Shown in pieces: positions 12,966 through 64,000 of a stretch of 64,000 nt of DNA (position 1 is its first letter; each line of letters starts with the position of its first letter). The notes below the pieces were generated by a model. That model did no database searches, was not told where the DNA came from, and saw nothing but the letters and a program-made list of their open reading frames with translations. A program made the translations under genes and the position numbers. Source of the DNA: a virus. Location: positions 6,285-70,284 of the IMG/VR virus record IMGVR_UViG_3300033153_006331; one strand, given 5' to 3'.

Positions 12966-13057
12966 GCCAATCCGAGGCGAGGCTAACCGACACGATTCGA
13001 TTCGGGACGAGGCGGTGCGAACCGGCCCGACTCGAGACAAGACAAGACGAAACGGCT
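12963..13057 (+). repeat. Pentamer array 1 (19 x constant triplet + NN)
   Basis: TGA gc CAA tc CGA gg CGA gg CTA ac CGA ca CGA tt CGA tt CGG ga CGA gg CGG tg CGA ac CGG cc CGA ct CGA ga CAA ga CAA ga CGA aa CGG ct, then a T-run. Confidence 0.9.
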
Positions 13058-13100
13058 TTTTTTCGGAATTTTCAAGAAAAGTGGGAAATGGGGGCTTTCG

Positions 13101-13112
13101 TGTGGTATAATG
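13101..13112 (+). promoter_or_regulatory. Extended -10 promoter TGTGGTATAATG upstream of array 2 and the RAMP gene
   Basis: Consensus TG-N-TATAAT; the identical 12-mer precedes array 6. Confidence 0.7.
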
Positions 13113-13134
13113 TCTTGCTCAGACGCAACGGAGA

Positions 13135-13199
13135 CGGCGCGAGGCGGAACGCCCCGATTCGGCACGAACCGAATTGACCCAAGACAAGACGAAACGGCT
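13135..13199 (+). repeat. Pentamer array 2 (13 units)
   Basis: CGG cg CGA gg CGG aa CGC cc CGA tt CGG ca CGA ac CGA at TGA cc CAA ga CAA ga CGA aa CGG ct. Confidence 0.9.
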
Positions 13200-13239
13200 G
13201 TTTTTCTATTCCCCCTGAACTCCCGAAAGGAGTGATGCA

Positions 13240-13833
13240 ATGCGAACTGCGACGATCAAAGTAACGGCGATGACCCCCTACAGCCAGTCCAAGGCCCTGA
13301 AAGAGGAGAAGAAGCGGGCCGAGTCCTATGAGGCCTTCGAGACTCGGGTCTGGAAGGACCGGATGCACGTTGACAGCGACGGACACGTTTTCGTGCCGCC
13401 TGTATCCATCCTGAACGGGATGGCCTGTGCCGCCGCCTATCTCTCCAAGGGCGGGGAGTTGAAGAAAAAGGGCAACGCAACGTGGTCCCAAAACTTCACT
13501 TGCGGCCTGTCGATCAGCGAAGGGCCGACTCTCCTGAACCGAGATGGCGTCCCGATGAGGGGCGAGGACGGCGATTCAGTCTGGGTGTATTGCCACGCGG
13601 ACGGCAAGCGGTCTTCCGGCACGCGGGTCTGGCGGTGCTTCCCGGTCTTCGAGAAGTGGACGCTAGAGTTTGTCCTGACGATCCTGGACGACACGATTCC
13701 CGAAGAGGTGTTCAACCGGGTGGTCGAGGCGTTCGGCTTGTTCAACGGCATCGGACGCTATCGGCCGCAGAACGGCGGATACTTGGGCCGCTTTGTGGTG
13801 GATTCAATAGAGATTTCAGACGTGGCGAAATGA
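13240..13833 (+). CDS. Solo RAMP/Cas7-like RNA-binding protein (candidate effector of the pentamer arrays)
   Basis: N-terminal strand IKVTAMTPY, GHVFVPPVSILNGMACAA (like the RAMP GxPxIPxxSxKG motif), C-terminal Gly-rich loop GLFNGIGRYRPQNGGYLGRFVV; AAGGAG RBS. Confidence 0.7.
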   Translation: MRTATIKVTAMTPYSQSKALKEEKKRAESYEAFETRVWKDRMHVDSDGHVFVPPVSILNGMACAAAYLSKGGELKKKGNATWSQNFTCGLSISEGPTLLNRDGVPMRGEDGDSVWVYCHADGKRSSGTRVWRCFPVFEKWTLEFVLTILDDTIPEEVFNRVVEAFGLFNGIGRYRPQNGGYLGRFVVDSIEISDVAK

Positions 13834-13900
13834 CGCGATGCGAATTGAGCCGACCCGGAGCGAAGTGACTCGATGCGGCCAGAAATGAAACGAAACGGCT
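13821..13900 (+). repeat. Pentamer array 3 (16 units, overlapping the RAMP gene stop)
   Basis: CGT gg CGA aa TGA cg CGA tg CGA at TGA gc CGA cc CGG ag CGA ag TGA ct CGA tg CGG cc AGA aa TGA aa CGA aa CGG ct. Confidence 0.9.
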
Positions 13901-13930
13901 TTGCTATTATTCGCGTCTTTGGAACGAAAG

Positions 13931-13995
13931 CGGAATGACGTGATACGATGCGAATTGAACCGACCCGGGGCGAAGTGAAACAAGACGAAACGCTT
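13931..13995 (+). repeat. Pentamer array 4 (13 units)
   Basis: CGG aa TGA cg TGA ta CGA tg CGA at TGA ac CGA cc CGG gg CGA ag TGA aa CAA ga CGA aa CGC tt. Confidence 0.9.
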
Positions 13996-14023
13996 TCCAC
14001 ACTTTTCCAAAGGAGACCCTATC

Positions 14024-14590
14024 GTGACTGAGGCACAACAGCCCGAACTAATCCAAGGCAAACACCGCCGCATACCCAGCGAGCCCAGCCCCGATGTATT
14101 CGTCATCGAAGGCGTACTCCGGGACCTGAAGGGCGAGCAGGTTGCCACGAAAGACACCCTGGCCAAGGCCATCGGCCTGGACGCCGAGAAGGATTGGGAG
14201 ATCGTATACCGCAGAATCTCGGCCGCCGTCAAACGGCTCCAGAACCGGGAACACATCAACATCTGCGTTGTCCGGGGCGAAGGCTATATGAAAGAGCCCG
14301 CCCCTGCCACCGTGGCCAAACAGGACAGCGAGCGGAAATCCTGCCGACGCCGGGCCACAAAGAACGTCCAGCGGTTGATGAACGTCAAGACCGACGAACT
14401 GGACGAGAACGAGAAATACAAGTTGAACGCCTCTCTGGCAATCAACATGGTCGCCAAAAAGGTGTTCTCACACGGGACCGGGCAGAAGATGATTGCGGCT
14501 GCCACGGTGAAGGACACGAAGCGGCTGCCGATGGCGGATGCGCTGAAGATTTTGCAGGACAGGGAGGCGGCCAAAAAGGAATCGGGATGA
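14024..14590 (+). CDS. Winged-helix-like accessory protein embedded between pentamer arrays
   Basis: TKDTLAKAIG...YRRISAAVKRL...VVRGEGY resembles an OmpR-type wHTH with wing; AAGGAG RBS. Confidence 0.6.
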   Translation: MTEAQQPELIQGKHRRIPSEPSPDVFVIEGVLRDLKGEQVATKDTLAKAIGLDAEKDWEIVYRRISAAVKRLQNREHINICVVRGEGYMKEPAPATVAKQDSERKSCRRRATKNVQRLMNVKTDELDENEKYKLNASLAINMVAKKVFSHGTGQKMIAAATVKDTKRLPMADALKILQDREAAKKESG

Positions 14591-14697
14591 AGCGAAGCGG
14601 CCCGACCCGGGGCGATTCGAGGCGAAACGAAACGAAACGAGGCGGACCGAGCCGGGGCGAGACGGCCCGATTCGGCTCGAGACAAGACGAAACGGCT
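14583..14697 (+). repeat. Pentamer array 5 (23 units)
   Basis: CGG ga TGA ag CGA ag CGG cc CGA cc CGG gg CGA tt CGA gg CGA aa CGA aa CGA aa CGA gg CGG ac CGA gc CGG gg CGA ga CGG cc CGA tt CGG ct CGA ga CAA ga CGA aa CGG ct. Confidence 0.9.
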
Positions 14698-22626: not shown

Positions 22627-23493
22627 TCAAAATTCGGTCTGAGCCGAAGTGCTCGAGCTGCTCGAACTGGAGGAGGACTCGCTCGAAGCACTGCTCGCAC
22701 TAGTAACTTCTGTCGAACTCGAAGAGCTGGACGTGCTGGCACTACTGGCCGCCGTCGAACTCGAAGAGCTGGACGTGCTGGCACTACTGGCCGCCGTCGA
22801 ACTCGAAGAGCTAAGGGTGCTCTGGCCCGTGCTGGACGTTGAGCTGCTCGATGGCGAAGCCGAACTGGTCGAGGATAGCGACTGGCTACTCGAAGAGGAC
22901 GAACTGGCTGACGAAGCCGTCGAACTCGACAGGCTCGAACTTGACGCACTCGAACTACTTGATTGCTCTTCTAAATCGAACCCTCGGAAGCACCGCAGGA
23001 ACCCGATCAGCTTTCCGGCCGTCAGGGCCGCAGTCCTGACATTCAACTTCAACTGCCGGGCCATGGTGGTCCGGATGGTAGTTGCCGCCGTACCGACCGG
23101 CACCACGTCATGTAGGCCGATAGTGCCATTGGCTGCCAAGTTGCCGGTAGCCAGCACGTCCTGTTGGGCTTCCAGGCCGATTGCAATGGTGGCCGCCCCG
23201 CCGGAGGTGAATAGGTCGATCACATCCAGCACGCCGTCGAATACGAGCGTGTTGGCCGGCACTTGCACGTCAAGATTGTGGAAGCCGATGCCACCACCGT
23301 CCTCGGCGAAATCGTACTCGAAGGCCAGGTACTCGTACGGCCACCAGGCGTCGATGTCCGGATCGTACAGCCAGGTGTTCATGTGGGCTTCTTCGAGGCA
23401 GATAGTCGCCTCATTGCCCCGATCGGGCAGGTCGCGGAATGTCGGTGCCGATTGGTCGATGCCATGCAGCACAGTCCTGGGGAATCTGGACAT
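22627..23493 (-). CDS. Virion protein with about 110-aa Ser/Thr/Ala C-terminus
   Basis: Paralog of 21887-22594; AAGGAG RBS. Confidence 0.6.
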   Translation of the reverse strand: MSRFPRTVLHGIDQSAPTFRDLPDRGNEATICLEEAHMNTWLYDPDIDAWWPYEYLAFEYDFAEDGGGIGFHNLDVQVPANTLVFDGVLDVIDLFTSGGAATIAIGLEAQQDVLATGNLAANGTIGLHDVVPVGTAATTIRTTMARQLKLNVRTAALTAGKLIGFLRCFRGFDLEEQSSSSSASSSSLSSSTASSASSSSSSSQSLSSTSSASPSSSSTSSTGQSTLSSSSSTAASSASTSSSSSSTAASSASTSSSSSSTEVTSASSASSESSSSSSSSSTSAQTEF

Positions 23494-34259: not shown

Positions 34260-34294
34260 TGGTCTGGAAGCCAACTGGCAGCCATTATACCACA

Positions 34295-42339: not shown

Positions 42340-44406
42340 CTATCGCCTTCCCCTTTCGAGTTGAGGCCCCGCCCCACGCCCACCACTCCGCAGGTCCATT
42401 GGAATCGACTTCCGTTGTTGGTCCCATTGCCGATGACTCATCTTCGTTGGGATCAATCCCTTGGAAATCTCGTGGGTGTGAAGAAGGTAGCGCAAACTAT
42501 CGACCGCATCATCTGCCAGCTTCAACGGCACGGGAGCCGCTACCTGCGGATTCAATATGCTCCCGCCCGATACCAGCGATTTCTTTCCCCGCTTCCACCG
42601 ATACTTTCGCATTTCCTCGACCAAATGCACGCACCGCTCGTGAATGACCAACTTCGGCTTCCCGTTGGTCTGGAGCTTCAGTAGCGTTCGTACCGTGTCA
42701 ATCCCCTTGTAGACGTCATTGGCAGCAGCAGAAACAGGTATGCCGCGATTGCCAAATTCGTTAATCTCGCCAGGTCGGCTTGGGTCGGCGTAGGTGTCCC
42801 GATAAACGTCCCGCTGTTTCGGCACCCAGACCGGGCCGATCTTGCTCTCCTGTTCGCGCTCGCCTTCACCGAGCCAATGCCCCGGCCACCCCCATGCCTG
42901 CGATTTTTCCACAATGGCCACAACATGGTCGAGCGTAATTCTAGCTTGAGAGTCACTCCAATACTCCTCGTAAACGTACCAGTCCCCAATCGCATCAACA
43001 TAGGCCCAAATGCACACGAATGGATGCTCGGCCGAGGCACCCCAGTCCACGCCCCGATAATGCCGCACGCCGACGGGGAACCGAGTTTCGCCCCGAACAA
43101 CATGAATCGCCGGATTGAACGTCGGGTAGATCACCCCCTCGAATGTAGCCAACGCCCCAGTCCGCCGCGTCTCCTGCATTTCGTCCGGCACGGCCCCGAA
43201 GAAGCTGTCAAACCAGCCGTCCGCCAAGTTCACCCGGTTGCAATCCGTGTTCGCCCGGTAGAACCCCCAGTCCTTCGGCGGATCGTCCATGACCTTCTCG
43301 AGATGGTAGCACAACTCCGGGTCGATGGGAGTGAATTCGCACATCTGGCCGCCACGAAACATGTAGTCCCGGCAGCCCCGGAGAGTCTCGACAAACAACT
43401 GCCACGGAAACTGCTCGGAAAACCAGAAGCCACCGATCGACTTGGCATGGAAGGCCGTCCGGCCCTGCTCGTAACTCTTGAATTCCAGCATCCACGAGTT
43501 GCGGCCGTTGCCGCCCTTGCGGTCCCGTGGCCATGGCTTCAAGTGGATGGCAAACGGCCAACCGTCCTTCTCTCGAAACCATCGGGTCCGCTTCCAGTCC
43601 ACCTCGATGCTCGGGATATGCCCGTTGCCCAAAAGCTTCTCCAGCCAGCAGATACCGCAGCACTGGTCGTACGTGCTGGTGATGACCCAGAATGGCGTGT
43701 CAGGCCGCGGTGGCGGCTGGTCGAGGAGCAGAAACTTGGCGACCTTGAAAGCAGAGGCTTCGGTCGTGCCGGAGTTATGGTGGATTACGCCACCCATTTC
43801 ATAGTTACGCCACTTCTTTACCGTAAAATCCCAAATGCCGTCTTTCTCGGCTCTCCTGATTTTGGACTGAATGCCCGGCAACGCTTTCCCCTTTGCATCA
43901 ATTGATGCAAGACAATCCCCAACCGATAAGTCAGCAAGGCAACGCCACTTGCGGTCAGAGCAAAGCAATCTGTGTGCTCCAGCAGCCGCAAAGGTCCAAC
44001 CCGTAGACAATACCACATCCCAAAGCCAATCAACCCGCTTGAAGAACGGCCTGCTTGCTACGCCGAGTTGGCGATTCCCATCCGCATCAACTGACCAAAC
44101 ATGAAATGGGCCTAAGATTTGATCGACCCGACTAAACGAGCGTTTCACCGGATCGAAAACTCTGCTGTCTCCAGCGATACAGGCGTTGCCTCCTACGAGA
44201 AATGCCACCAAGTCTTTCGAGTAGCAGAATCCCGCCTGCTGGTCGAATAGTTCCGGCCGGTCCGGCCGCGGGATGAACGTGGAGTACGCTGATTCGTCGA
44301 GGAGCTGGAGATACTCTTGAAGATCGGGCGAGCCCTGGACTTCCGCCACGGCATCCTCAAGCATGTCGGGCGGTAGTTGGTCAAGGATGCCCATCGTCGC
44401 TGCCAT
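42340..44406 (-). CDS. terL: Terminase large subunit with intein
   Basis: LEFKSYEQGR..F, FWFSEQ, FTPI, GVDWG...PFVCIW, YADPS, DDAVDSLRY. Start uncertain (44394-44460). Confidence 0.9.
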   Translation of the reverse strand: MAATMGILDQLPPDMLEDAVAEVQGSPDLQEYLQLLDESAYSTFIPRPDRPELFDQQAGFCYSKDLVAFLVGGNACIAGDSRVFDPVKRSFSRVDQILGPFHVWSVDADGNRQLGVASRPFFKRVDWLWDVVLSTGWTFAAAGAHRLLCSDRKWRCLADLSVGDCLASIDAKGKALPGIQSKIRRAEKDGIWDFTVKKWRNYEMGGVIHHNSGTTEASAFKVAKFLLLDQPPPRPDTPFWVITSTYDQCCGICWLEKLLGNGHIPSIEVDWKRTRWFREKDGWPFAIHLKPWPRDRKGGNGRNSWMLEFKSYEQGRTAFHAKSIGGFWFSEQFPWQLFVETLRGCRDYMFRGGQMCEFTPIDPELCYHLEKVMDDPPKDWGFYRANTDCNRVNLADGWFDSFFGAVPDEMQETRRTGALATFEGVIYPTFNPAIHVVRGETRFPVGVRHYRGVDWGASAEHPFVCIWAYVDAIGDWYVYEEYWSDSQARITLDHVVAIVEKSQAWGWPGHWLGEGEREQESKIGPVWVPKQRDVYRDTYADPSRPGEINEFGNRGIPVSAAANDVYKGIDTVRTLLKLQTNGKPKLVIHERCVHLVEEMRKYRWKRGKKSLVSGGSILNPQVAAPVPLKLADDAVDSLRYLLHTHEISKGLIPTKMSHRQWDQQRKSIPMDLRSGGRGAGPQLERGRR
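43774..44181 (-). mobile_element. Mini-intein (136 aa, no homing endonuclease) in the TerL Walker A region
   Basis: Starts CIAGDSRV, block B-like AAGAHRLL, ends GGVIHHN followed by Ser; lower GC than flanks. Confidence 0.9.
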
Positions 44407-45073
44407 CCTCAAGCTCATAGAACTGACGCAATAACTCGGCAGTTTCTTTGAGCCCGTCAATCACCTTCTGCTTACGCAACTCATCCTCTGCGTCAATGCA
44501 ACAATCTTCCGTCCGCTCGGTCCGCAATCGTTCCAATTCACGCTCTGCGTCTTCTGCCCGCACATACATTCCAGAGTGACAACAACAGAGATTTCCACTA
44601 CAGGAATGCAGCTCCATCCTGCCGCTTGCCAAATAGTATATGTCCATTCGATGGCCTTCGTTTTGCCCCAGGGGCCGCGGGGCCTCCTCTCTCTTCCCCA
44701 CGGCAGCCAAGGCCGCTTGGCAGATGGCCAGCGGGGCACTCTTTATAAAGCTACTGTGGCCAACACACTTCTGCTTTCGGAAAACCGTACCCTGCCAACA
44801 ACGATTCCAATCCTGCATAGGGATCAATCTCAATTCCAGATCCCACAACTTTTCTATCACCTCCCATGCGTCAGCGATATTGAGGTCTGGCCGCCAGCAG
44901 TTGCTACGGGCAGTATAAACATTGACCGTCCCATCAGGGAATTGACCAACATAGGGGCGGTTGCCCCAGTCATCACCCTGGCCATGGCGTTCGTATTGCG
45001 GCCATTTCATCACCTCGCGGGCAATCCTCGCGGCAAACTCTGGGCTGGCCTGCATTTGATTTGCGTCTGTCAC
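44381..45073 (-). CDS. Phage protein (ABA sandwich-like N-terminal domain)
   Basis: IAREVMKW...WRPDLNIADAWEVIEKL...SAPLAICQAAL. Confidence 0.6.
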   Translation of the reverse strand: MTDANQMQASPEFAARIAREVMKWPQYERHGQGDDWGNRPYVGQFPDGTVNVYTARSNCWRPDLNIADAWEVIEKLWDLELRLIPMQDWNRCWQGTVFRKQKCVGHSSFIKSAPLAICQAALAAVGKREEAPRPLGQNEGHRMDIYYLASGRMELHSCSGNLCCCHSGMYVRAEDAERELERLRTERTEDCCIDAEDELRKQKVIDGLKETAELLRQFYELEDGSDDGHP

Positions 45074-45917: not shown

Positions 45918-46472
45918 TCACACCTCCACGTCAACGCATAGGGCCTTAGAAATCGTTATGCCGGAGCCTGACCAGTCGCAATGCTGATAGGTGCCCGGCT
46001 TTTCAAGCAGCGTGTACGCGGACGCTGTGAATCCTCCGAGCGTCACCGACTCGAAATCGCAGTCTACCGACGAGACGCGAGGGATTATCAGCCGCCAATC
46101 CCCGATAAGCACCTCGTCGCCAGGATCAACCTGCTCCTGTAGCGGGCCGTCAGGAGGGCCGGGCCCCTCTTCTATCGCGATCTCGTAGACGCTGGCCTCC
46201 AGCAGGATATCGCCAGGGGAAAACGTGTTGTCCAGCCCGAACTCGATCCGGCCATTACAGAACGCTAACTGGCCCTTCCACAAGCACTCCTGCCCCTGCT
46301 CGTCGGTCACCTGTGCCATCGGGATCACCTGTGCCATCCAGTCCTCGCAAGTGCCGCAGTCCATATCGGCTACACCGAACAACTGAGCTTCAAGCAGCCG
46401 TCGCCCCGTGCAGACTTTGCACAGCTCGCAGCGTGGTTCCCAACACCAGCCGACGTTAGAAATCCGTCTCAT
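45918..46472 (-). CDS. Cys-rich hypothetical protein
   Basis: 184 aa ORF starting just after array 7. Confidence 0.45.
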   Translation of the reverse strand: MRRISNVGWCWEPRCELCKVCTGRRLLEAQLFGVADMDCGTCEDWMAQVIPMAQVTDEQGQECLWKGQLAFCNGRIEFGLDNTFSPGDILLEASVYEIAIEEGPGPPDGPLQEQVDPGDEVLIGDWRLIIPRVSSVDCDFESVTLGGFTASAYTLLEKPGTYQHCDWSGSGITISKALCVDVEV

Positions 46473-46479
46473 CTGATAC

Positions 46480-46574
46480 AGCCGTTTCGTCTTGTCTCAT
46501 GCCGCTTCGCTTCGTGCCGCTTCAAATCGGGCCGTTTCGCCTCGTGCCGCTTCGCGCCGTCTCGGGTCGTCTCG
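46480..46574 (-). repeat. Pentamer array 7 (19 units)
   Basis: CGA ga CGA cc CGA ga CGG cg CGA ag CGG ca CGA gg CGA aa CGG cc CGA tt TGA ag CGG ca CGA ag CGA ag CGG ca TGA ga CAA ga CGA aa CGG ct. Confidence 0.9.
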
Positions 46575-46599
46575 CTTTCATCCAATGGGATAATGGCAA

Positions 46600-46729
46600 A
46601 GCCGTTTCGTCTTGTCTCGTGCCAAATCAGTTCTCTTCGCCTCGAGTCGGCTCGTTCCGACTCGTTCCGTCTCGGCTCGCGCCGCCTCGCCCCGTCTCGA
46701 GCCGGATCGTTCCGGTTCGGCTCATCTTG
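46600..46729 (-). repeat. Pentamer array 6 (26 units)
   Basis: CAA ga TGA gc CGA ac CGG aa CGA tc CGG ct CGA ga CGG gg CGA gg CGG cg CGA gc CGA ga CGG aa CGA gt CGG aa CGA gc CGA ct CGA gg CGA ag AGA ac TGA tt TGG ca CGA ga CAA ga CGA aa CGG ct. Confidence 0.9.
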
Positions 46730-46738
46730 CCCGCCCGC

Positions 46739-46750
46739 CATTATACCACA
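46739..46750 (-). promoter_or_regulatory. Extended -10 promoter TGTGGTATAATG upstream of arrays 6-7
   Basis: Identical to 13101-13112. Confidence 0.7.
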
Positions 46751-46756
46751 CCACTC

Positions 46757-46993
46757 TCACGCCAGAGCCTCCAAACTCTGCCCTTGCAATCGTCGGTCCT
46801 TTGCCCGAGCCAGAATCTCGGCCAAAAGCTCCCGCCAATCAGCCGGCTCTTTGCTGTCACGGTACACCAAAATCCTGGCACAGAACGGGCACTTGACCCA
46901 GCCTGTAGCCTTGTCCGGCACATAGAGAAATTTCTTGCGGCACAGTCCGCAATGAAACCTCCCGGCTTGCTCTTGATTGGAATCCATCATCAT
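46757..46993 (-). CDS. Small zinc-ribbon protein
   Basis: CGLC...CPFC; C-terminus LAEILARAKDRRLQ resembles the TerS C-terminus. Confidence 0.5.
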   Translation of the reverse strand: MMMDSNQEQAGRFHCGLCRKKFLYVPDKATGWVKCPFCARILVYRDSKEPADWRELLAEILARAKDRRLQGQSLEALA

Positions 46994-46994
46994 G

Positions 46995-47606
46995 CTACAC
47001 CACGTCCTCACTGGGCCCCTCCAAAGCCTCTCTCTGAAGCCGCCTATCCTTCACCCGCTGGAGAATCTCGGCGAGAATCGTCGCGGTCAGCTCTTCTGGC
47101 TTCAGTCCAGCCACCCGCACGCCAACCTCGTGCCGATGCTCGTGTCTGTCAACCAACAGCCCACCCAACTTGGCCCGCATTTCAATAGACCACTTCACAA
47201 AGTCAAGCCAGTTCCCCTCGCCTGTCCGCCACTTCGTAACCTTCGTCACCAACTCGGCCGGCACGCCTTCCTTACTGAGCACCTCGCGGACAGTCTTGAT
47301 TCTCTCGGGGCCCTGAGATTCCAGGAACTTCTCCCAGGATATCCGCTCGACCAAATCTATCTTGCGGAGTTCACGGCGGAGAGAAACGCCACCCTGGGCC
47401 GCCCATTGGGGCTCGATCCGGTTTTTGACATGATGGCGGATCGCTTCGCCAGAGAACCCGAGCCGGCGGCCAATCTCTCGGATCGACACCCCCATGAGGT
47501 GCCATTCTTCAATCTGCCGAAGGTCCTTCGGAGAGATACTCTTCCCAGACTTCGGATTCCCCGGCCTCAACTTCCCCTCGCCATTATTACCAGCTCCACT
47601 TGTCAT
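46995..47606 (-). CDS. Terminase small subunit (HTH)
   Basis: GVSIREIGRRLGFSGEAIRHHV HTH; EMRAKLGGLLVDRHEH; upstream of terL. Confidence 0.65.
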   Translation of the reverse strand: MTSGAGNNGEGKLRPGNPKSGKSISPKDLRQIEEWHLMGVSIREIGRRLGFSGEAIRHHVKNRIEPQWAAQGGVSLRRELRKIDLVERISWEKFLESQGPERIKTVREVLSKEGVPAELVTKVTKWRTGEGNWLDFVKWSIEMRAKLGGLLVDRHEHRHEVGVRVAGLKPEELTATILAEILQRVKDRRLQREALEGPSEDVV

Positions 47607-48945: not shown

Positions 48946-50828
48946 ACCGCCAATATGGTTCCGGAGTACGGGCCGATGGAACTGATTTCCCCGTCCAGGG
49001 CCCCGATCGAAACGAGAACACCAGCGGATGATCCCAGCGTGCCGATCGTGCCAACAGCCACACCATAGCGTTCCGAGGATGACGACAATGAGGAGCCTGA
49101 CTCGCCCGTCGAACTGGACGAGGACGAGGAAAGGGTTGACAGGCTCGACGGCGACGTAGACGACGACGAGAGCGACGAGCGGCTTGTCGATGGGCTCGAC
49201 GACGTTGACATAGACGAGATGCTGATCGACGAACTTGACGACGACGACACAGACGGCGAGCTTGACGACGAGCTGCTTGACGTGCTCATCAGCGTGCTGG
49301 AAGAACTCGACGAACTGCTGGGCGTTGACGACGAGGACGAGGAGGCCGTTGACCTGCTTGACGATGACGCGGTGCTGAGCAACGTCGAACTTGACGATGA
49401 TGCGGTGCTCAATAACGTCGAACTACTTGACGAACTGTGTACCGTAGAACTTGATGAGGAACGAGTAATCGAGGATACGCTGGTCGATGACCCCGACGTA
49501 GACGAGGGGGAGGATACGCTAGTTGACGAACTCGATGATGATGTGATTCCCAAGCTGCTTGACGACGAAGTAGACGGCTCTTCGCCAGATATGCCCAGGC
49601 TAGTTGAGGAACTGGAAGAGGACGTAATCCCGAGCGAACTGGACGAGCTTGACGATGAAGTTATGCCAAGACTGGACGAAGAACTTGAAGAGGACGACGT
49701 GAGGCCCAGGCTGCTTGACGAACTCGATGATGACGTAATCCCCAAGCTGCTTGAACTCGAGGAACTTGATGTAATCCCAAGCGAACTTGAACTCGAGGAC
49801 GAGGTAAGGCCGAGGCTACTCGACGAACTCGACGATGAAGTTATGTCAAGACTAGACGAAGAGCTTGAAGATGATGTAATTCCCAATGAGCTTGAGGATG
49901 AACTGGACGACGTAATCCCTAAACTGCTAGACGAACTTGACGATGACGTTATGCCAAGCGAACTGGAGGAGGAAGAACTTGAAAGCGATTCGCCGGAGAA
50001 CCCCAAGCTGCTCGACGAACTTGATGATGACGTCAGCCCCAGGCTGCTCGACGAACTCGATGATGACGACTCCTCCTCCGCCACTCCCGCCGCGAACACC
50101 CGCCCCCTCAGCCTGAACAAGGCGTGGGGATCGACGTAGAGTTGCTGGATTTCGTTGGGGGCAAGGGCTCGCGAATACAAGAAATACGATCCTATCCTCC
50201 CTGCATATTCTACCGCCCCATGCTGCCAGGGCTGCCCGATCTCTAACCCGGCAGACGGTGTCATGTCCCCGTGCGTGATGACGCCCGTTTTTTCCAACCT
50301 GCCTTGGACATAACCGCTCAGCGTACTGCCTTGTTTCGTCCAAACCAGACAATCCCACTTGCCTGCCCCACTTACAGGCACCTGGCTGTTTGCTGCGTCA
50401 CCGTTGATCGGATATAGGCCGCCATAGACGTTATAGAAACCATTTTGGAAACCTATAACCACAGCAAATTCATCTTTGCCACCAAAATCACTTATATAGC
50501 CTATATCAGTTGTACTGTTCGGTGCCAGCCATATTACAATAGACAAATCACCCGGCAATGCTGGAGTTGACATTCCCGAGACATAATCAAGTGTCCCATC
50601 AAAATCCAACGCCCAACCTTTTTCACTCATCACCCAATCTGTAGCTGGGTCCATGTTGGTCAGCGTGCCATGATTCCCGAACCCGGACTGATCCCGCAAC
50701 GTCGCCCCGGTAACGCCCAGCGTCGGAGCCCACGCACCCACGAGCCCGTTCCACAATCCGGGATTAGCGGACTCGGCCGCGTTGCGGGCAAATCCCTGCG
50801 CGTAGGATGGGAGCCAGAGGCTACTCAT
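48942..50828 (-). CDS. LamG/concanavalin A-like domain protein with about 330-aa Ser-rich repeat region
   Basis: GLVGAW...LRDQSGFGNHGTLTNM...ALDFDG...LYSRALAPNEIQQLY, then repeated S(7-9)LG(I/L)T units. Confidence 0.85.
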   Translation of the reverse strand: MSSLWLPSYAQGFARNAAESANPGLWNGLVGAWAPTLGVTGATLRDQSGFGNHGTLTNMDPATDWVMSEKGWALDFDGTLDYVSGMSTPALPGDLSIVIWLAPNSTTDIGYISDFGGKDEFAVVIGFQNGFYNVYGGLYPINGDAANSQVPVSGAGKWDCLVWTKQGSTLSGYVQGRLEKTGVITHGDMTPSAGLEIGQPWQHGAVEYAGRIGSYFLYSRALAPNEIQQLYVDPHALFRLRGRVFAAGVAEEESSSSSSSSSLGLTSSSSSSSSLGFSGESLSSSSSSSSLGITSSSSSSSSLGITSSSSSSSSLGITSSSSSSSSLDITSSSSSSSSLGLTSSSSSSSLGITSSSSSSSSLGITSSSSSSSSLGLTSSSSSSSSSLGITSSSSSSSSLGITSSSSSSTSLGISGEEPSTSSSSSLGITSSSSSSTSVSSPSSTSGSSTSVSSITRSSSSSTVHSSSSSSTLLSTASSSSSTLLSTASSSSRSTASSSSSSTPSSSSSSSSTLMSTSSSSSSSSPSVSSSSSSSISISSMSTSSSPSTSRSSLSSSSTSPSSLSTLSSSSSSSTGESGSSLSSSSERYGVAVGTIGTLGSSAGVLVSIGALDGEISSIGPYSGTILAV

Positions 50829-63415: not shown

Positions 63416-64000
63416 TTACAGTTTAGTCCCATCGGCCCGGCGGCCCATGGCATCAAGCAGTAGTCTGCTGAGCTTCCGGTTGTGGGCATGCCTGGCCGTA
63501 GTCGCGCTCCGAGCTATAGCTTCCGCACGCTTGGCCGCGCTCTCGGCCGCGCTCTCAGCCGCGCTCCTGGCCGCGCTCCTGGCCGCGTTCCAGGCCGCGT
63601 TCCAGGCCGCGCTCTCGGCCGCGCTCTCGGCCACGCTCTCGGCCACGCTCCCGGCCACGCTCTCGGCCACGCTCCAGGCCGCGCTCTCGGCCACGCTCTC
63701 GGCCGCGCTCCAGGCCGCGCTCCAGGCCGCGATCGCGGCCGCGCTCCCGGCTGCGTCCAGTTCTTCGTCGGTAGCCTTACCGGCCAACCATCGCCGCTTA
63801 GTCTGCACGGCCTTCCACGATCGCGGGTCGGGCTCGCGCCCGGCCTTCCGTTCGGCGTGCAGCATATCCTCCAGACAGGAGCAGGCGAACTCATGCAGGA
63901 TGCGCGTGGCGTCCACCATGCCGAGGCATTTCCGCTCTTCGGCGCACGCCTTGTCTTTGTCCTCCAATATCTCGCCTCGTAATTCGACGAGACAGGCCAC
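63416..64000 (-). CDS. Phage protein with AAWS/AAES tetrapeptide repeats (5' end outside window)
   Basis: LHEFAC..., DPRSWKAV..KRRWL.G.ATDEEL.AA, then 12-bp tandem repeats at about 63530-63750. Confidence 0.7.
   Translation of the reverse strand: MACLVELRGEILEDKDKACAEERKCLGMVDATRILHEFACSCLEDMLHAERKAGREPDPRSWKAVQTKRRWLAGKATDEELDAAGSAAAIAAWSAAWSAAESVAESAAWSVAESVAGSVAESVAESAAESAAWNAAWNAARSAARSAAESAAESAAKRAEAIARSATTARHAHNRKLSRLLLDAMGRRADGTKL

What the first reader, a model, noticed from the sequence alone, without database searches (positions are those of the whole stretch)
46480..46750. Orphan pair of the same pentamer arrays 32 kb away, with identical promoter and homologous linker
Seen in sequence: arrays 6 (26 units) and 7 (19 units) lie on the minus strand between terS and terL. 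They share the tail GACAAGACGAAACGGCT, start about 10 nt after TGTGGTATAATG (the 12-mer that also precedes array 2), and have different NN strings. The 6-7 linker (TTGCCATTATCCCATTGGATGAAAG) resembles the 3-4 linker (TTGCTATTATTCGCGTCTTTGGAACGAAAG). Inference: this is a stand-alone guide cassette acting in trans. Conserved promoter, linker and tail with divergent NN argue for selection on a scaffold rather than microsatellite slippage.
Basis: partly seen in the sequence, partly recalled or inferred. Interest (0 to 1): 0.85.

Follow-up and report, generated by a model that had tools for sequence, protein, structure and literature searches.

The report
Remote guide-RNA pair of phage VIPR

Summary
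On the minus strand, 46729-46600 (26 units) and 46574-46480 (19 units) are in-register pentamer arrays. The triplet is fixed (C-G-A/G) and the dinucleotide varies freely. They share the 3' tail of the five arrays at 12968-14697 and the 12-mer TGTGGTATAATG.

The whole 70-kb virus record holds exactly seven such arrays, against 0-1 in shuffles. The 197-aa protein at 13240-13833 folds as a Cas7-type RAMP (Z 13.4 to Csm3). It falls in the same PHROG family as the Vipr protein of phage SUSP1, and the next gene falls in the same family as SUSP1 vap1.

This is therefore a VIPR system (bioRxiv 10.64898/2026.04.26.720920), and arrays 6-7 are a remote vrRNA pair with their own promoter-like site. Solo vrRNAs and non-GGY triplets are already in print.

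The local differences are a CGR anchor, longer arrays, a short in-register tail, and a remote cassette in a phage that keeps vipr.

No transcript evidence was available and no target was found. This scan has met VIPR on other DNA many times. Verdict: real, correctly read, a new member of a known kind.

The parts
46739..46750 (-). Promoter-like 12-mer TGTGGTATAATG (extended -10, no -35), 9 nt upstream of the first unit of array 6
   Evidence: Exact copy also at 13101-13112 (+), before array 2, and at 34283-34294 (-). The two-hexamer scan finds nothing here. Function as a promoter is inferred.
46600..46729 (-). Array 6: candidate vrRNA, 22 variable CGR/NN units plus the 4-unit tail CGAGA CAAGA CGAAA CGGCT
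   Evidence: NN order is not selected for folding (z -0.63).
46575..46599 (-). 25-nt linker between arrays 6 and 7, similar to the linker between arrays 3 and 4
   Evidence: Alignment.
46480..46574 (-). Array 7: candidate vrRNA, 15 variable units plus the same tail. It ends 7 nt before the ATG (46472) of ORF 45918-46472.
13240..13833 (+). vipr: lone Cas7-type RAMP protein of 197 aa, the presumed partner of all seven arrays
   Evidence: AF2 model pLDDT 92.7. Foldseek best matches are type VII Cas7, Csm3 and Cmr4 (E 2.9e-7 and weaker). VIA Z 13.4, rmsd 4.1, 169 residues aligned to Csm3 6xn3_F. phrog_4652 at E 1.8e-10, the same family as SUSP1 Vipr at 1.4e-96.
14024..14590 (+). vap-like accessory gene (188 aa), probably winged-helix
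   Evidence: phrog_5926 at E 5.4e-6, the same family as the SUSP1 gene next to vipr at 1.1e-75. Model pLDDT 75. Only weak winged-helix matches, none at E <= 0.001.
12968..13057 (+). Array 1 of the main locus
13101..13112 (+). Promoter-like 12-mer before array 2
13115..13199 (+). Array 2
13836..13900 (+). Array 3
13931..13995 (+). Array 4 (tail variant CGCTT)
14588..14697 (+). Array 5. Its first triplet is the TGA stop of the vap-like gene.

Best explanation
Arrays 6 and 7 are two vrRNA genes (guide RNAs) of this phage's VIPR system, placed 32 kb from the vipr-vap operon behind their own extended -10 promoter.

By analogy with the SUSP1 system, each RNA would be coated by a filament of the Vipr protein (13240-13833), one protomer per pentamer. 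The protein would sequester the fixed triplet, here C-G-A/G instead of G-G-Y, and present the two variable bases. The NN bases would then read double-stranded DNA in a gapped code: two bases read and one skipped. This would silence a gene of a competing phage, satellite or prophage.

Shown here: the anatomy of the arrays; their restriction to seven sites in the genome; the RAMP fold of the protein; homology of both proteins to SUSP1 Vipr and vap1; and conservation of the gene-plus-array association in relatives.

Inferred: transcription from the 12-mer; processing at the tail and linker; loading in trans; the skip rule in this clade; and the target.
For: (1) FOLD. The protein is a Cas7-type RAMP: AF2 pLDDT 92.7; Foldseek best E 2.9e-7 to type VII Cas7, Csm3 and Cmr4; VIA Z 13.4.

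(2) SHARED FAMILIES. The window protein, SUSP1 Vipr and the LESphi2 homolog all match phrog_4652 (1.8e-10, 1.4e-96, 8.5e-66). The window's second gene and the SUSP1 gene after vipr both match phrog_5926 (5.4e-6, 1.1e-75).

(3) PAIRWISE SIMILARITY. tblastn window to LESphi2 gives 27% identity, E 2e-5. LESphi2 to SUSP1 gives 37.6%, E 1e-41. BLASTP window to SUSP1 gives E 1e-8 over the thumb-to-G-loop part.

(4) PUBLISHED ANATOMY REPRODUCED. The SUSP1 and LESphi2 loci carry GGY/NN arrays on the vipr strand.

(5) SAME ANATOMY HERE. The triplet is fixed, NN entropy is 1.95-1.97 bits, and the 3' tail is constant.

(6) ASSOCIATION CONSERVED. All 21 metagenome loci that encode a homolog show period-5 arrays beside the gene, as do two virus records.

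(7) SYNTENIC COMPARISON. Arrays of the nearest relative (70% protein identity) keep the triplets (45 of 54) but not the NN (11 of 36).

(8) LINK TO THE LOCUS. A6 and A7 carry the same tail as the locus-linked arrays and the same 12-mer as array 2.

(9) NO SELF-TARGET. None is above the shuffled controls, as the first VIPR preprint reports for its systems (methods passage).

(10) MECHANISM AND SOLO GUIDES ARE IN PRINT. See 10.64898/2026.04.26.720920 (Results), 10.64898/2026.04.26.720927 (section 5) and 10.64898/2026.10.15.759431 (section 8).
Against: The fixed triplet is not the published GGY.

SUSP1 residues reported to hold G1 and G2 are changed: H17 lies in a 15-residue segment that this clade lacks, D177 aligns with R173, and R138 aligns with F134. 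RNA recognition must therefore differ in detail, and the one-base skip rule is untested for this clade.

No target was found.

The tail is a 20-nt stretch in pentamer register, unlike the roughly 40-nt pseudoknot tail described for SUSP1.

The promoter-like site has no -35, and no terminator-like site follows. The arrays could therefore simply be part of the leader of ORF 45918-46472.

Identity to SUSP1 Vipr is low: 21% in the multiple alignment.
Confidence: 0.85

Rival explanations
1. The arrays bind Vipr but are not guides. They would act as a decoy or sponge, or as a Vipr-responsive 5' leader, that tunes the amount of free Vipr or the expression of the downstream packaging-region genes.
For: Array 7 ends 7 nt before the ATG of ORF 45918-46472, and no terminator-like site lies between them. 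No target was found for either array. Satellite solo vrRNAs that redirect Vipr to decoy sites are in print (abstract).
Against: The NN strings are as diverse as those of arrays 1-5 and are not repeats of one another. A sponge would not need two different NN strings of 22 and 15 units. A blank in the target searches says little, because only exact 9-10-unit seeds could be scanned.
Confidence: 0.08
2. The arrays act as DNA, not RNA: phased 5-bp binding sites for the winged-helix vap-like protein or another DNA-binding protein, for example a packaging or partition site.
For: The cassette lies in the packaging region. The vap-like protein has a weak winged-helix resemblance.
Against: In every locus examined the arrays sit on the coding strand of vipr with the tail at the 3' end. 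A duplex binding site has no need of that polarity. In SUSP1 the homologous arrays are transcribed and co-purify with Vipr (paper's result).
Confidence: 0.03
3. Microsatellite-like slippage product or degenerate simple repeat without function.
For: Short-period tandem repeats do arise by slippage. One related contig carries a perfect (CGAAC)n run (L022).
Against: Slippage copies whole units, whereas here positions 4-5 are near maximal entropy while 1-3 are fixed. There are seven arrays with one shared tail and none elsewhere. The association with the RAMP gene is conserved in 21 of 21 metagenome loci.
Confidence: 0.02
4. The cassette encodes the 90-aa Arg/Glu-rich ORF 46469-46741 (-).
For: An ATG-to-stop frame spans both arrays.
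Against: Its ATG lies inside the TATAATG box with no ribosome-binding site. CGR/NN tracts are nearly stop-free in most frames by construction. Arrays 3 and 4 have stops in all three sense frames. There is no Pfam match at E <= 1.
Confidence: 0.01

Closest known systems
VIPR systems, type II exemplars (Escherichia phage SUSP1; Pseudomonas fulva prophage): Vipr + vap1 + vrRNAs (bioRxiv 10.64898/2026.04.26.720920; structures in 10.64898/2026.04.26.720927)
   Same: Phage-borne two-gene operon of a lone RAMP and a small accessory gene. Both genes fall in the same PHROG families as the SUSP1 pair. Flanking arrays of 5-nt units have a fixed triplet, hypervariable NN and a constant 3' tail, on the vipr strand. 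There is no self-targeting.
   Different: The triplet is C-G-A/G, not G-G-Y. There are 13-26 units per array here, and up to 43 in a relative, against 9-16 published. The tail is 20 nt, in register and A-rich, not a roughly 40-nt pseudoknot. The contact residues H17, D177 and R138 are not conserved. Two of the seven guides lie 32 kb from the operon.
Solo (orphan) vrRNAs of F5 satellites and VIPR-null SUSP1-like phages (bioRxiv 10.64898/2026.10.15.759431)
   Same: vrRNA genes that stand away from any vipr gene and must be loaded in trans.
   Different: Those carriers lack vipr and use or misdirect another element's protein. Here the same genome encodes vipr, and the orphan pair has the tail of the phage's own guides. 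The published solo guides have predicted targets (vipr, satellites, host repeats); none is known here.
Non-canonical VIPR arrays found by a genomic language model (bioRxiv 10.64898/2026.10.21.760802; passages only)
   Same: Period-5 arrays with a fixed triplet other than GGY, next to Vipr-like folds.
   Different: The text names GAC, CAC, WGT and TGH. CGA/CGG/CGC is not named in the passages I saw. The full list is in a figure that I could not see.
Cas7 backbone filaments of class 1 CRISPR effectors (Csm3, Cmr4, type VII Cas7)
   Same: Same fold (Z 12-13.4). The protein polymerises along a guide RNA, with a thumb that interrupts pairing periodically (from the cited papers).
   Different: There are no CRISPR repeats, no other cas genes, and a 5-nt rather than 6-nt period. 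The repeat unit itself is recognised by sequence.

Membership tests
VIPR system | Lone RAMP protein (RRM core, glycine-rich loop, thumb hairpin) outside a CRISPR-Cas locus | tested here: met
   AF2 model pLDDT 92.7. VIA Z 13.4 to Csm3. Foldseek best E 2.9e-7 to Cas7 proteins. C-terminal GIGRYRPQNGGYLGRF loop and hairpin 112-137. The tandem-repeat finder lists no array of period 55-80 in the window. I did not run a dedicated cas-gene search.
VIPR system | Sequence homology to an experimentally characterised Vipr (SUSP1) | tested here: met
   Both match phrog_4652: window 1.8e-10, SUSP1 1.4e-96. BLASTP E 1e-8 over 72 residues. Chain through LESphi2.
VIPR system | Adjacent vap accessory gene | tested here: met
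   Window 14024-14590 and the SUSP1 gene downstream of vipr both match phrog_5926 (5.4e-6 and 1.1e-75). The winged-helix fold is only weakly supported.
VIPR system | vrRNA: tandem 5-nt units, fixed triplet alternating with hypervariable NN | tested here: met
   Entropy 0.75, 0.42 and 0.96 bits at positions 1-3 against 1.95 and 1.97 bits at positions 4-5, over 99 units.
VIPR system | Fixed triplet is GGY (canonical consensus) | tested here: not met
   Position 1 is C in 84 of 99 units, position 2 is G in 93 of 99, position 3 is A in 68 and G in 30 of 99. The papers allow 'a related consensus' and report non-canonical triplets, so this does not exclude membership.
VIPR system | Constant 3' tail after the repeat tract | tested here: met
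   Shared tail at 5 of 7 arrays exactly, with close variants at arrays 3 and 4. A pseudoknot like that of SUSP1 was not tested and looks unlikely for a 20-nt tail.
VIPR system | vrRNAs are expressed and co-purify with Vipr | not testable with these tools
   No sequencing run was listed for the stretch. This needs wet-lab work.
VIPR system | NN code matches a natural DNA target under the one-base skip rule | tested here: inconclusive
   No match above shuffled guides in the phage's own genome, two related virus records or 21 metagenome loci. Exact 9-10-unit seeds gave either nothing or seed-only matches.
Solo/orphan vrRNA (Lopez et al. preprint) | vrRNA gene located away from vipr-vap | tested here: met
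   A6 and A7 lie about 32 kb from the operon. No RAMP gene is next to them.
Solo/orphan vrRNA (Lopez et al. preprint) | Carrier element lacks vipr (VIPR-null) | tested here: not met
   The same record encodes vipr at 13240-13833.
CRISPR-Cas | Array of 25-40-nt direct repeats with spacers, and cas operon | tested here: not met
   No such array in the tandem-repeat list. No Rfam family reaches its threshold in the window. The locus has two genes only.

The most novel reading that the evidence does not exclude
This clade of Viprs reads a different anchor (C-G-purine here, CGA or CGC in relatives) through a remodelled base-recognition pocket. The His-bearing N-terminal segment is absent, Asp becomes Arg in the G-loop, and Arg becomes Phe in the thumb. 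The filament would be capped by a short in-register A-rich tail instead of a pseudoknot. The phage would also keep a second, separately promoted battery of long guides in its packaging region, so that guides are made at another time, or in another amount, than those of the vipr operon. If so, anchor and protein co-vary as a matched pair, which would give orthogonal VIPR systems.
Probability: 0.35. Interest if true: 0.45.

Novelty: new member of a known kind. Interest (0 to 1): 0.3.

Why it matters
The finding shows that VIPR, known so far mainly from enterobacterial and Pseudomonas phages, also occurs in uncultured sediment and water phages, with a different fixed triplet and much longer guides. 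It also shows that a phage which keeps vipr can scatter guide genes far from the operon. The matched change of anchor and of the protein residues that hold the anchor in SUSP1 is a testable lead to how Vipr recognises its RNA, and possibly to orthogonal systems. As a discovery it comes after the 2026 preprints, so its value is confirmatory and comparative.

Tried and rejected
RFAM. At gathering thresholds, 0 matches in the window.

TARGET SEARCH.
- All seven guides were run against the whole 70-kb record with 0, 1, 2 or 3 skipped bases. Nothing exceeded the shuffled guides, except the arrays finding themselves at skip 3.
- The seven guides here and four guides of G001 were run against the other virus records and 21 metagenome loci under the one-base skip rule. 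Nothing exceeded the controls.
- Exact gapped seeds in viral contigs gave 0 matches for each of the two 10-unit A6 seeds. The two 9-unit A7 seeds gave 3 and 1 matches. None of these extends beyond the seed; totals were 19-22 of 30 bases, including the 18 seeded.
- One 10-unit A6 seed in genome contigs gave 2 matches, both seed-only: 26 and 24 of 44.
- Mismatch-tolerant scans of the collections were not possible.

NEIGHBOUR-GENE LEAD (from earlier notes of this scan, that a solo guide may spell a rival's allele of the adjacent gene).
- The best self matches of A6 and A7 are not next to the cassette.
- ORF 45918-46472 has no relative in viral contigs.
- It has one homolog (96% identity) in the protein collection, whose contig I could not fetch.

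CODON-PHASE TEST OF THE NN COMPOSITION. Low power: only 43-46% of true sites were classed correctly. The outcome was mixed: A6 favours codon positions 1-2 by 3.3 bits, A7 does not.

FOLDING. Compared with NN-permuted controls, z ranged from -0.63 to +1.68 for the seven arrays, so there is no sign of selection for structure.

TAIL 18-MER IN VIRAL_CONTIGS. 0 matches.

REMOTE ARRAYS IN RELATIVES. G001 (45% complete) and G002 (56% complete) show arrays only beside vipr. Both are fragments, so this says little.

SEQUENCING RUNS. None was listed, and no RNA holder was listed.

VAP FOLD. No match at E <= 0.001.

PAPER MATERIAL NOT SEEN. I did not ask for supplementary files. Figures S10 and S17 and data S3 and S4 of the preprints, which I could not see, may already list a CGR anchor or remote guides in VIPR-positive phages.

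Full report
WHAT IS THERE. On the minus strand the intergenic stretch 46750-46480 reads as follows: TGTGGTATAATG, nine bases, then 26 pentamers in perfect register (46729-46600), a 25-nt linker, and then 19 pentamers (46574-46480). Both tracts end in CGAGA/TGAGA CAAGA CGAAA CGGCT.

In the variable parts, 17 of 22 units (array 6) and 14 of 15 units (array 7) are CG[A/G]NN. Over the 99 variable units of all seven arrays, positions 1-3 carry 0.75, 0.42 and 0.96 bits of entropy, and positions 4-5 carry 1.95 and 1.97 bits.

The 14-mer tail core is exact at five places and nowhere else in the 70,284-base record. A scan for YGR-phased runs finds exactly the seven arrays in the whole record, against 0 or 1 in 20 shuffles.

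The 12-mer is exact at three places: before array 2, before array 6 and at 34283-34294. The third copy has no array behind it, so the 12-mer is a promoter-like motif of the phage in general. It has an extended -10 but no -35, and the two-hexamer scan reports nothing.

The linker between arrays 6 and 7 and the linker between arrays 3 and 4 align convincingly. Only the label 'terS' for the upstream gene is unverified.

WHAT THE PARTNER PROTEIN IS. The 197-aa product of 13240-13833 has no Pfam family but matches phrog_4652. It has 65 relatives at E <= 0.001 among the 118 candidates scored in the word-indexed search. In the full scan it has 1,017 representative clusters at E <= 0.001, of which 610 are at E <= 1e-10 and 36 at E <= 1e-30.

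An AlphaFold model built on 33 sequences has pLDDT 92.7. Its best Foldseek matches in the PDB are Cas7 subunits of type VII, type III-A (Csm3) and type III-B (Cmr4) complexes, with E 2.9e-7 and weaker. VIA-align gives Z 13.4, rmsd 4.1 over 169 residues, to Csm3 of Lactococcus lactis, and the other listed rows (Z 13.4 to 10.7) are also CRISPR effector-complex chains. The C-terminal GIGRYRPQNGGYLGRF is a glycine-rich loop, and the hairpin 112-137 is in the place of a thumb.

IDENTIFICATION. [quoted passage not shown] I read its abstract, the whole Results and Methods sections 18 and 20, plus passages. It describes VIPR:
- a phage-borne lone RAMP (Vipr);
- a small accessory gene (vap);
- vrRNAs made of 9-16 units of GGY/NN followed by a constant 3' tail;
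- the NN bases read double-stranded DNA while skipping one base per unit.

A companion structure paper (10.64898/2026.04.26.720927; abstract and section 5) shows one Vipr protomer per repeat in a helical filament. It names the residues that hold G1 (H17, D177), G2 (R138, W178) and Y3.

I tested membership directly. The window protein hits a LESphi2 protein at 27% identity, E 2e-5. That protein hits SUSP1 at 37.6%, E 1e-41. SUSP1 Vipr, the LESphi2 protein and the window protein all match phrog_4652. The SUSP1 gene after vipr and the window's 14024-14590 both match phrog_5926. The SUSP1 and LESphi2 loci carry GGT/NN and GGC/NN arrays on the vipr strand, as published. The window locus is thus a VIPR system of the vipr-vap1 architecture.

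RELATIVES.
- A virus record at 56% protein identity has the same order: array, array, vipr, array, vap, array. Its arrays are 22, 19, 43 and 41 units of strict CGA/NN. L014 is the same sequence in another record.
- All 21 metagenome loci that encode a homolog show period-5 arrays beside the gene. Six are of CGA/NN type (L010, L014, L016, L017, L021, L029). Fifteen have C-rich triplets, mostly CGC/NN, with tails ending CTCAACGCAACG.
- A provirus record at 39% identity has (C/G)TC/NN units.
- Between the window and its nearest relative (70% protein identity), tail-anchored syntenic arrays keep 45 of 54 triplet bases but only 11 of 36 NN bases. The other two pairs give 23 of 39 against 8 of 26, and 21 of 27 against 6 of 18.

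HOW THIS SYSTEM DIFFERS FROM THE PUBLISHED TYPE.
- The anchor is C-G-A/G, not G-G-Y.
- In a multiple alignment (21% identity to SUSP1), H17 of SUSP1 lies in a 15-residue segment that the whole clade lacks. D177 aligns with R173 and R138 with F134, while W178 and R179 align with Y174 and R175.
- The change at the reported G1 contacts, with the G2-stacking aromatic retained, fits an anchor that keeps G2 but replaces G1. This is an inference from a low-identity alignment.
- Arrays are longer.
- The tail is 20 nt, stays in pentamer register and has A-rich NN. It does not resemble the roughly 40-nt tail after the SUSP1 arrays.

Non-canonical triplets next to Vipr-like folds are already in print (10.64898/2026.10.21.760802; passages only). 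That paper reports 21 clusters and names GAC, CAC, WGT and TGH. The first preprint mentions NNNGG, YNNNG and NNNNG repeats. CGR is not named in what I could read, and the figures with the full lists were not available to me.

THE ORPHAN PAIR ITSELF. Solo vrRNAs are described for satellites and for 346 phages that have lost vipr and vap1. That paper also notes vrRNA-targeting vrRNAs on VIPR-positive phages (10.64898/2026.10.15.759431; abstract and section 8).

Here the pair sits 32 kb from a complete operon in the same genome. It has the tail of the phage's own guides, a copy of the 12-mer that precedes array 2, and a linker like that of the array 3-4 doublet. The simplest history is a duplication of a promoter-array-linker-array module, followed by replacement of the NN strings. 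Unit identity is 0.25 for A3 against A6 and 0.33 for A4 against A7.

The cassette fills the whole gap between the stop of ORF 46757-47011 and the start of ORF 45918-46472. No terminator-like site follows, so read-through into the downstream genes is possible.

RIVALS.
- Coding is excluded as a class property. Arrays 3 and 4 have stops in all three sense frames. The ATG of the 90-aa ORF lies inside the -10 box. There is no family match.
- A structured RNA is not supported: permuting NN among units does not change the folding energy (z -0.63 to +1.68), and Rfam finds nothing.
- Slippage does not produce fixed triplets with near-random dinucleotides.
- A DNA-level binding site does not explain the constant polarity relative to vipr.
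- A decoy or leader role cannot be excluded, because no target was found.

TARGETS. No self-target and no cross-target in the related records was seen. Exact seeds in the virus and genome collections gave nothing that extends beyond the seed. The skip rule therefore remains untested for this clade. This blank is weak, because only exact 9-10-unit seeds could be scanned.

EARLIER NOTES OF THIS SCAN. My checks agree with them. The scan has reported VIPR on other DNA many times: 140 findings in at least 119 genomes hold the words searched (VIPR, vrRNA, pentamer, orphan), including solo guides in phages that keep vipr.

VERDICT. It is a member of a kind that has been in print since April 2026. It carries local peculiarities that are worth a note rather than a headline: the CGR anchor with matching protein changes, long arrays, the in-register tail, and a remote cassette in a VIPR-positive phage.

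Noticed in passing
window 13831-13833, 14588-14590, 46757-46759: The TGA stop codons of vipr, of the vap-like gene and of ORF 46757-47011 each fall in pentamer register with the array that follows (arrays 3, 5 and 6), as if the stop were the first scaffold triplet. For array 6 this is arithmetic only (30 bases upstream of the first unit) and could be chance.
   Followed up: partly
window 13836-13900 and 13931-13995: Arrays 3 and 4 share 67% of their NN units over the best overlap, unlike any other pair (0.14-0.33). They look like a recent duplicate or two guides for allelic targets.
   Followed up: no
L011-L013, L015, L018-L020, L022-L028, L030 (metagenome loci): Relatives of the same Vipr clade use C-rich triplets (mostly CGC/NN) with a tail ending CTCAACGCAACG. 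A provirus record (L009/G002) uses (C/G)TC/NN. The anchor triplet thus varies within one protein clade.
   Followed up: partly
L023, L025, L028: In these loci the vap homolog lies upstream of vipr, not downstream, so the gene order of the operon is not fixed.
   Followed up: no
L022 1431-1560: A related contig carries perfect (CGAAC)n runs, a pentamer array with no NN variation. It may be a degenerate or slippage-expanded guide.
   Followed up: no
window 34283-34294 (-): The third exact copy of TGTGGTATAATG is not followed by a pentamer array. The same reader noted a tRNA-like element just downstream, which I did not examine.
   Followed up: no
window 42340-44460 (-): The large-terminase ORF is long (705 aa), matches terminase families only from about residue 227 on, and has a weak Intein_splicing match at residues 199-228 (E 0.006, below cut-off). 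This may be an intein or an N-terminal extension.
   Followed up: no
window 63533-63755: A 12-bp tandem repeat (GGCCGCGCTCCC) occurs in 18.6 copies. There is also a perfect 42-bp repeat x2.4 at 22712-22812, and acidic GAC-rich repeats at 49116-49424.
   Followed up: no
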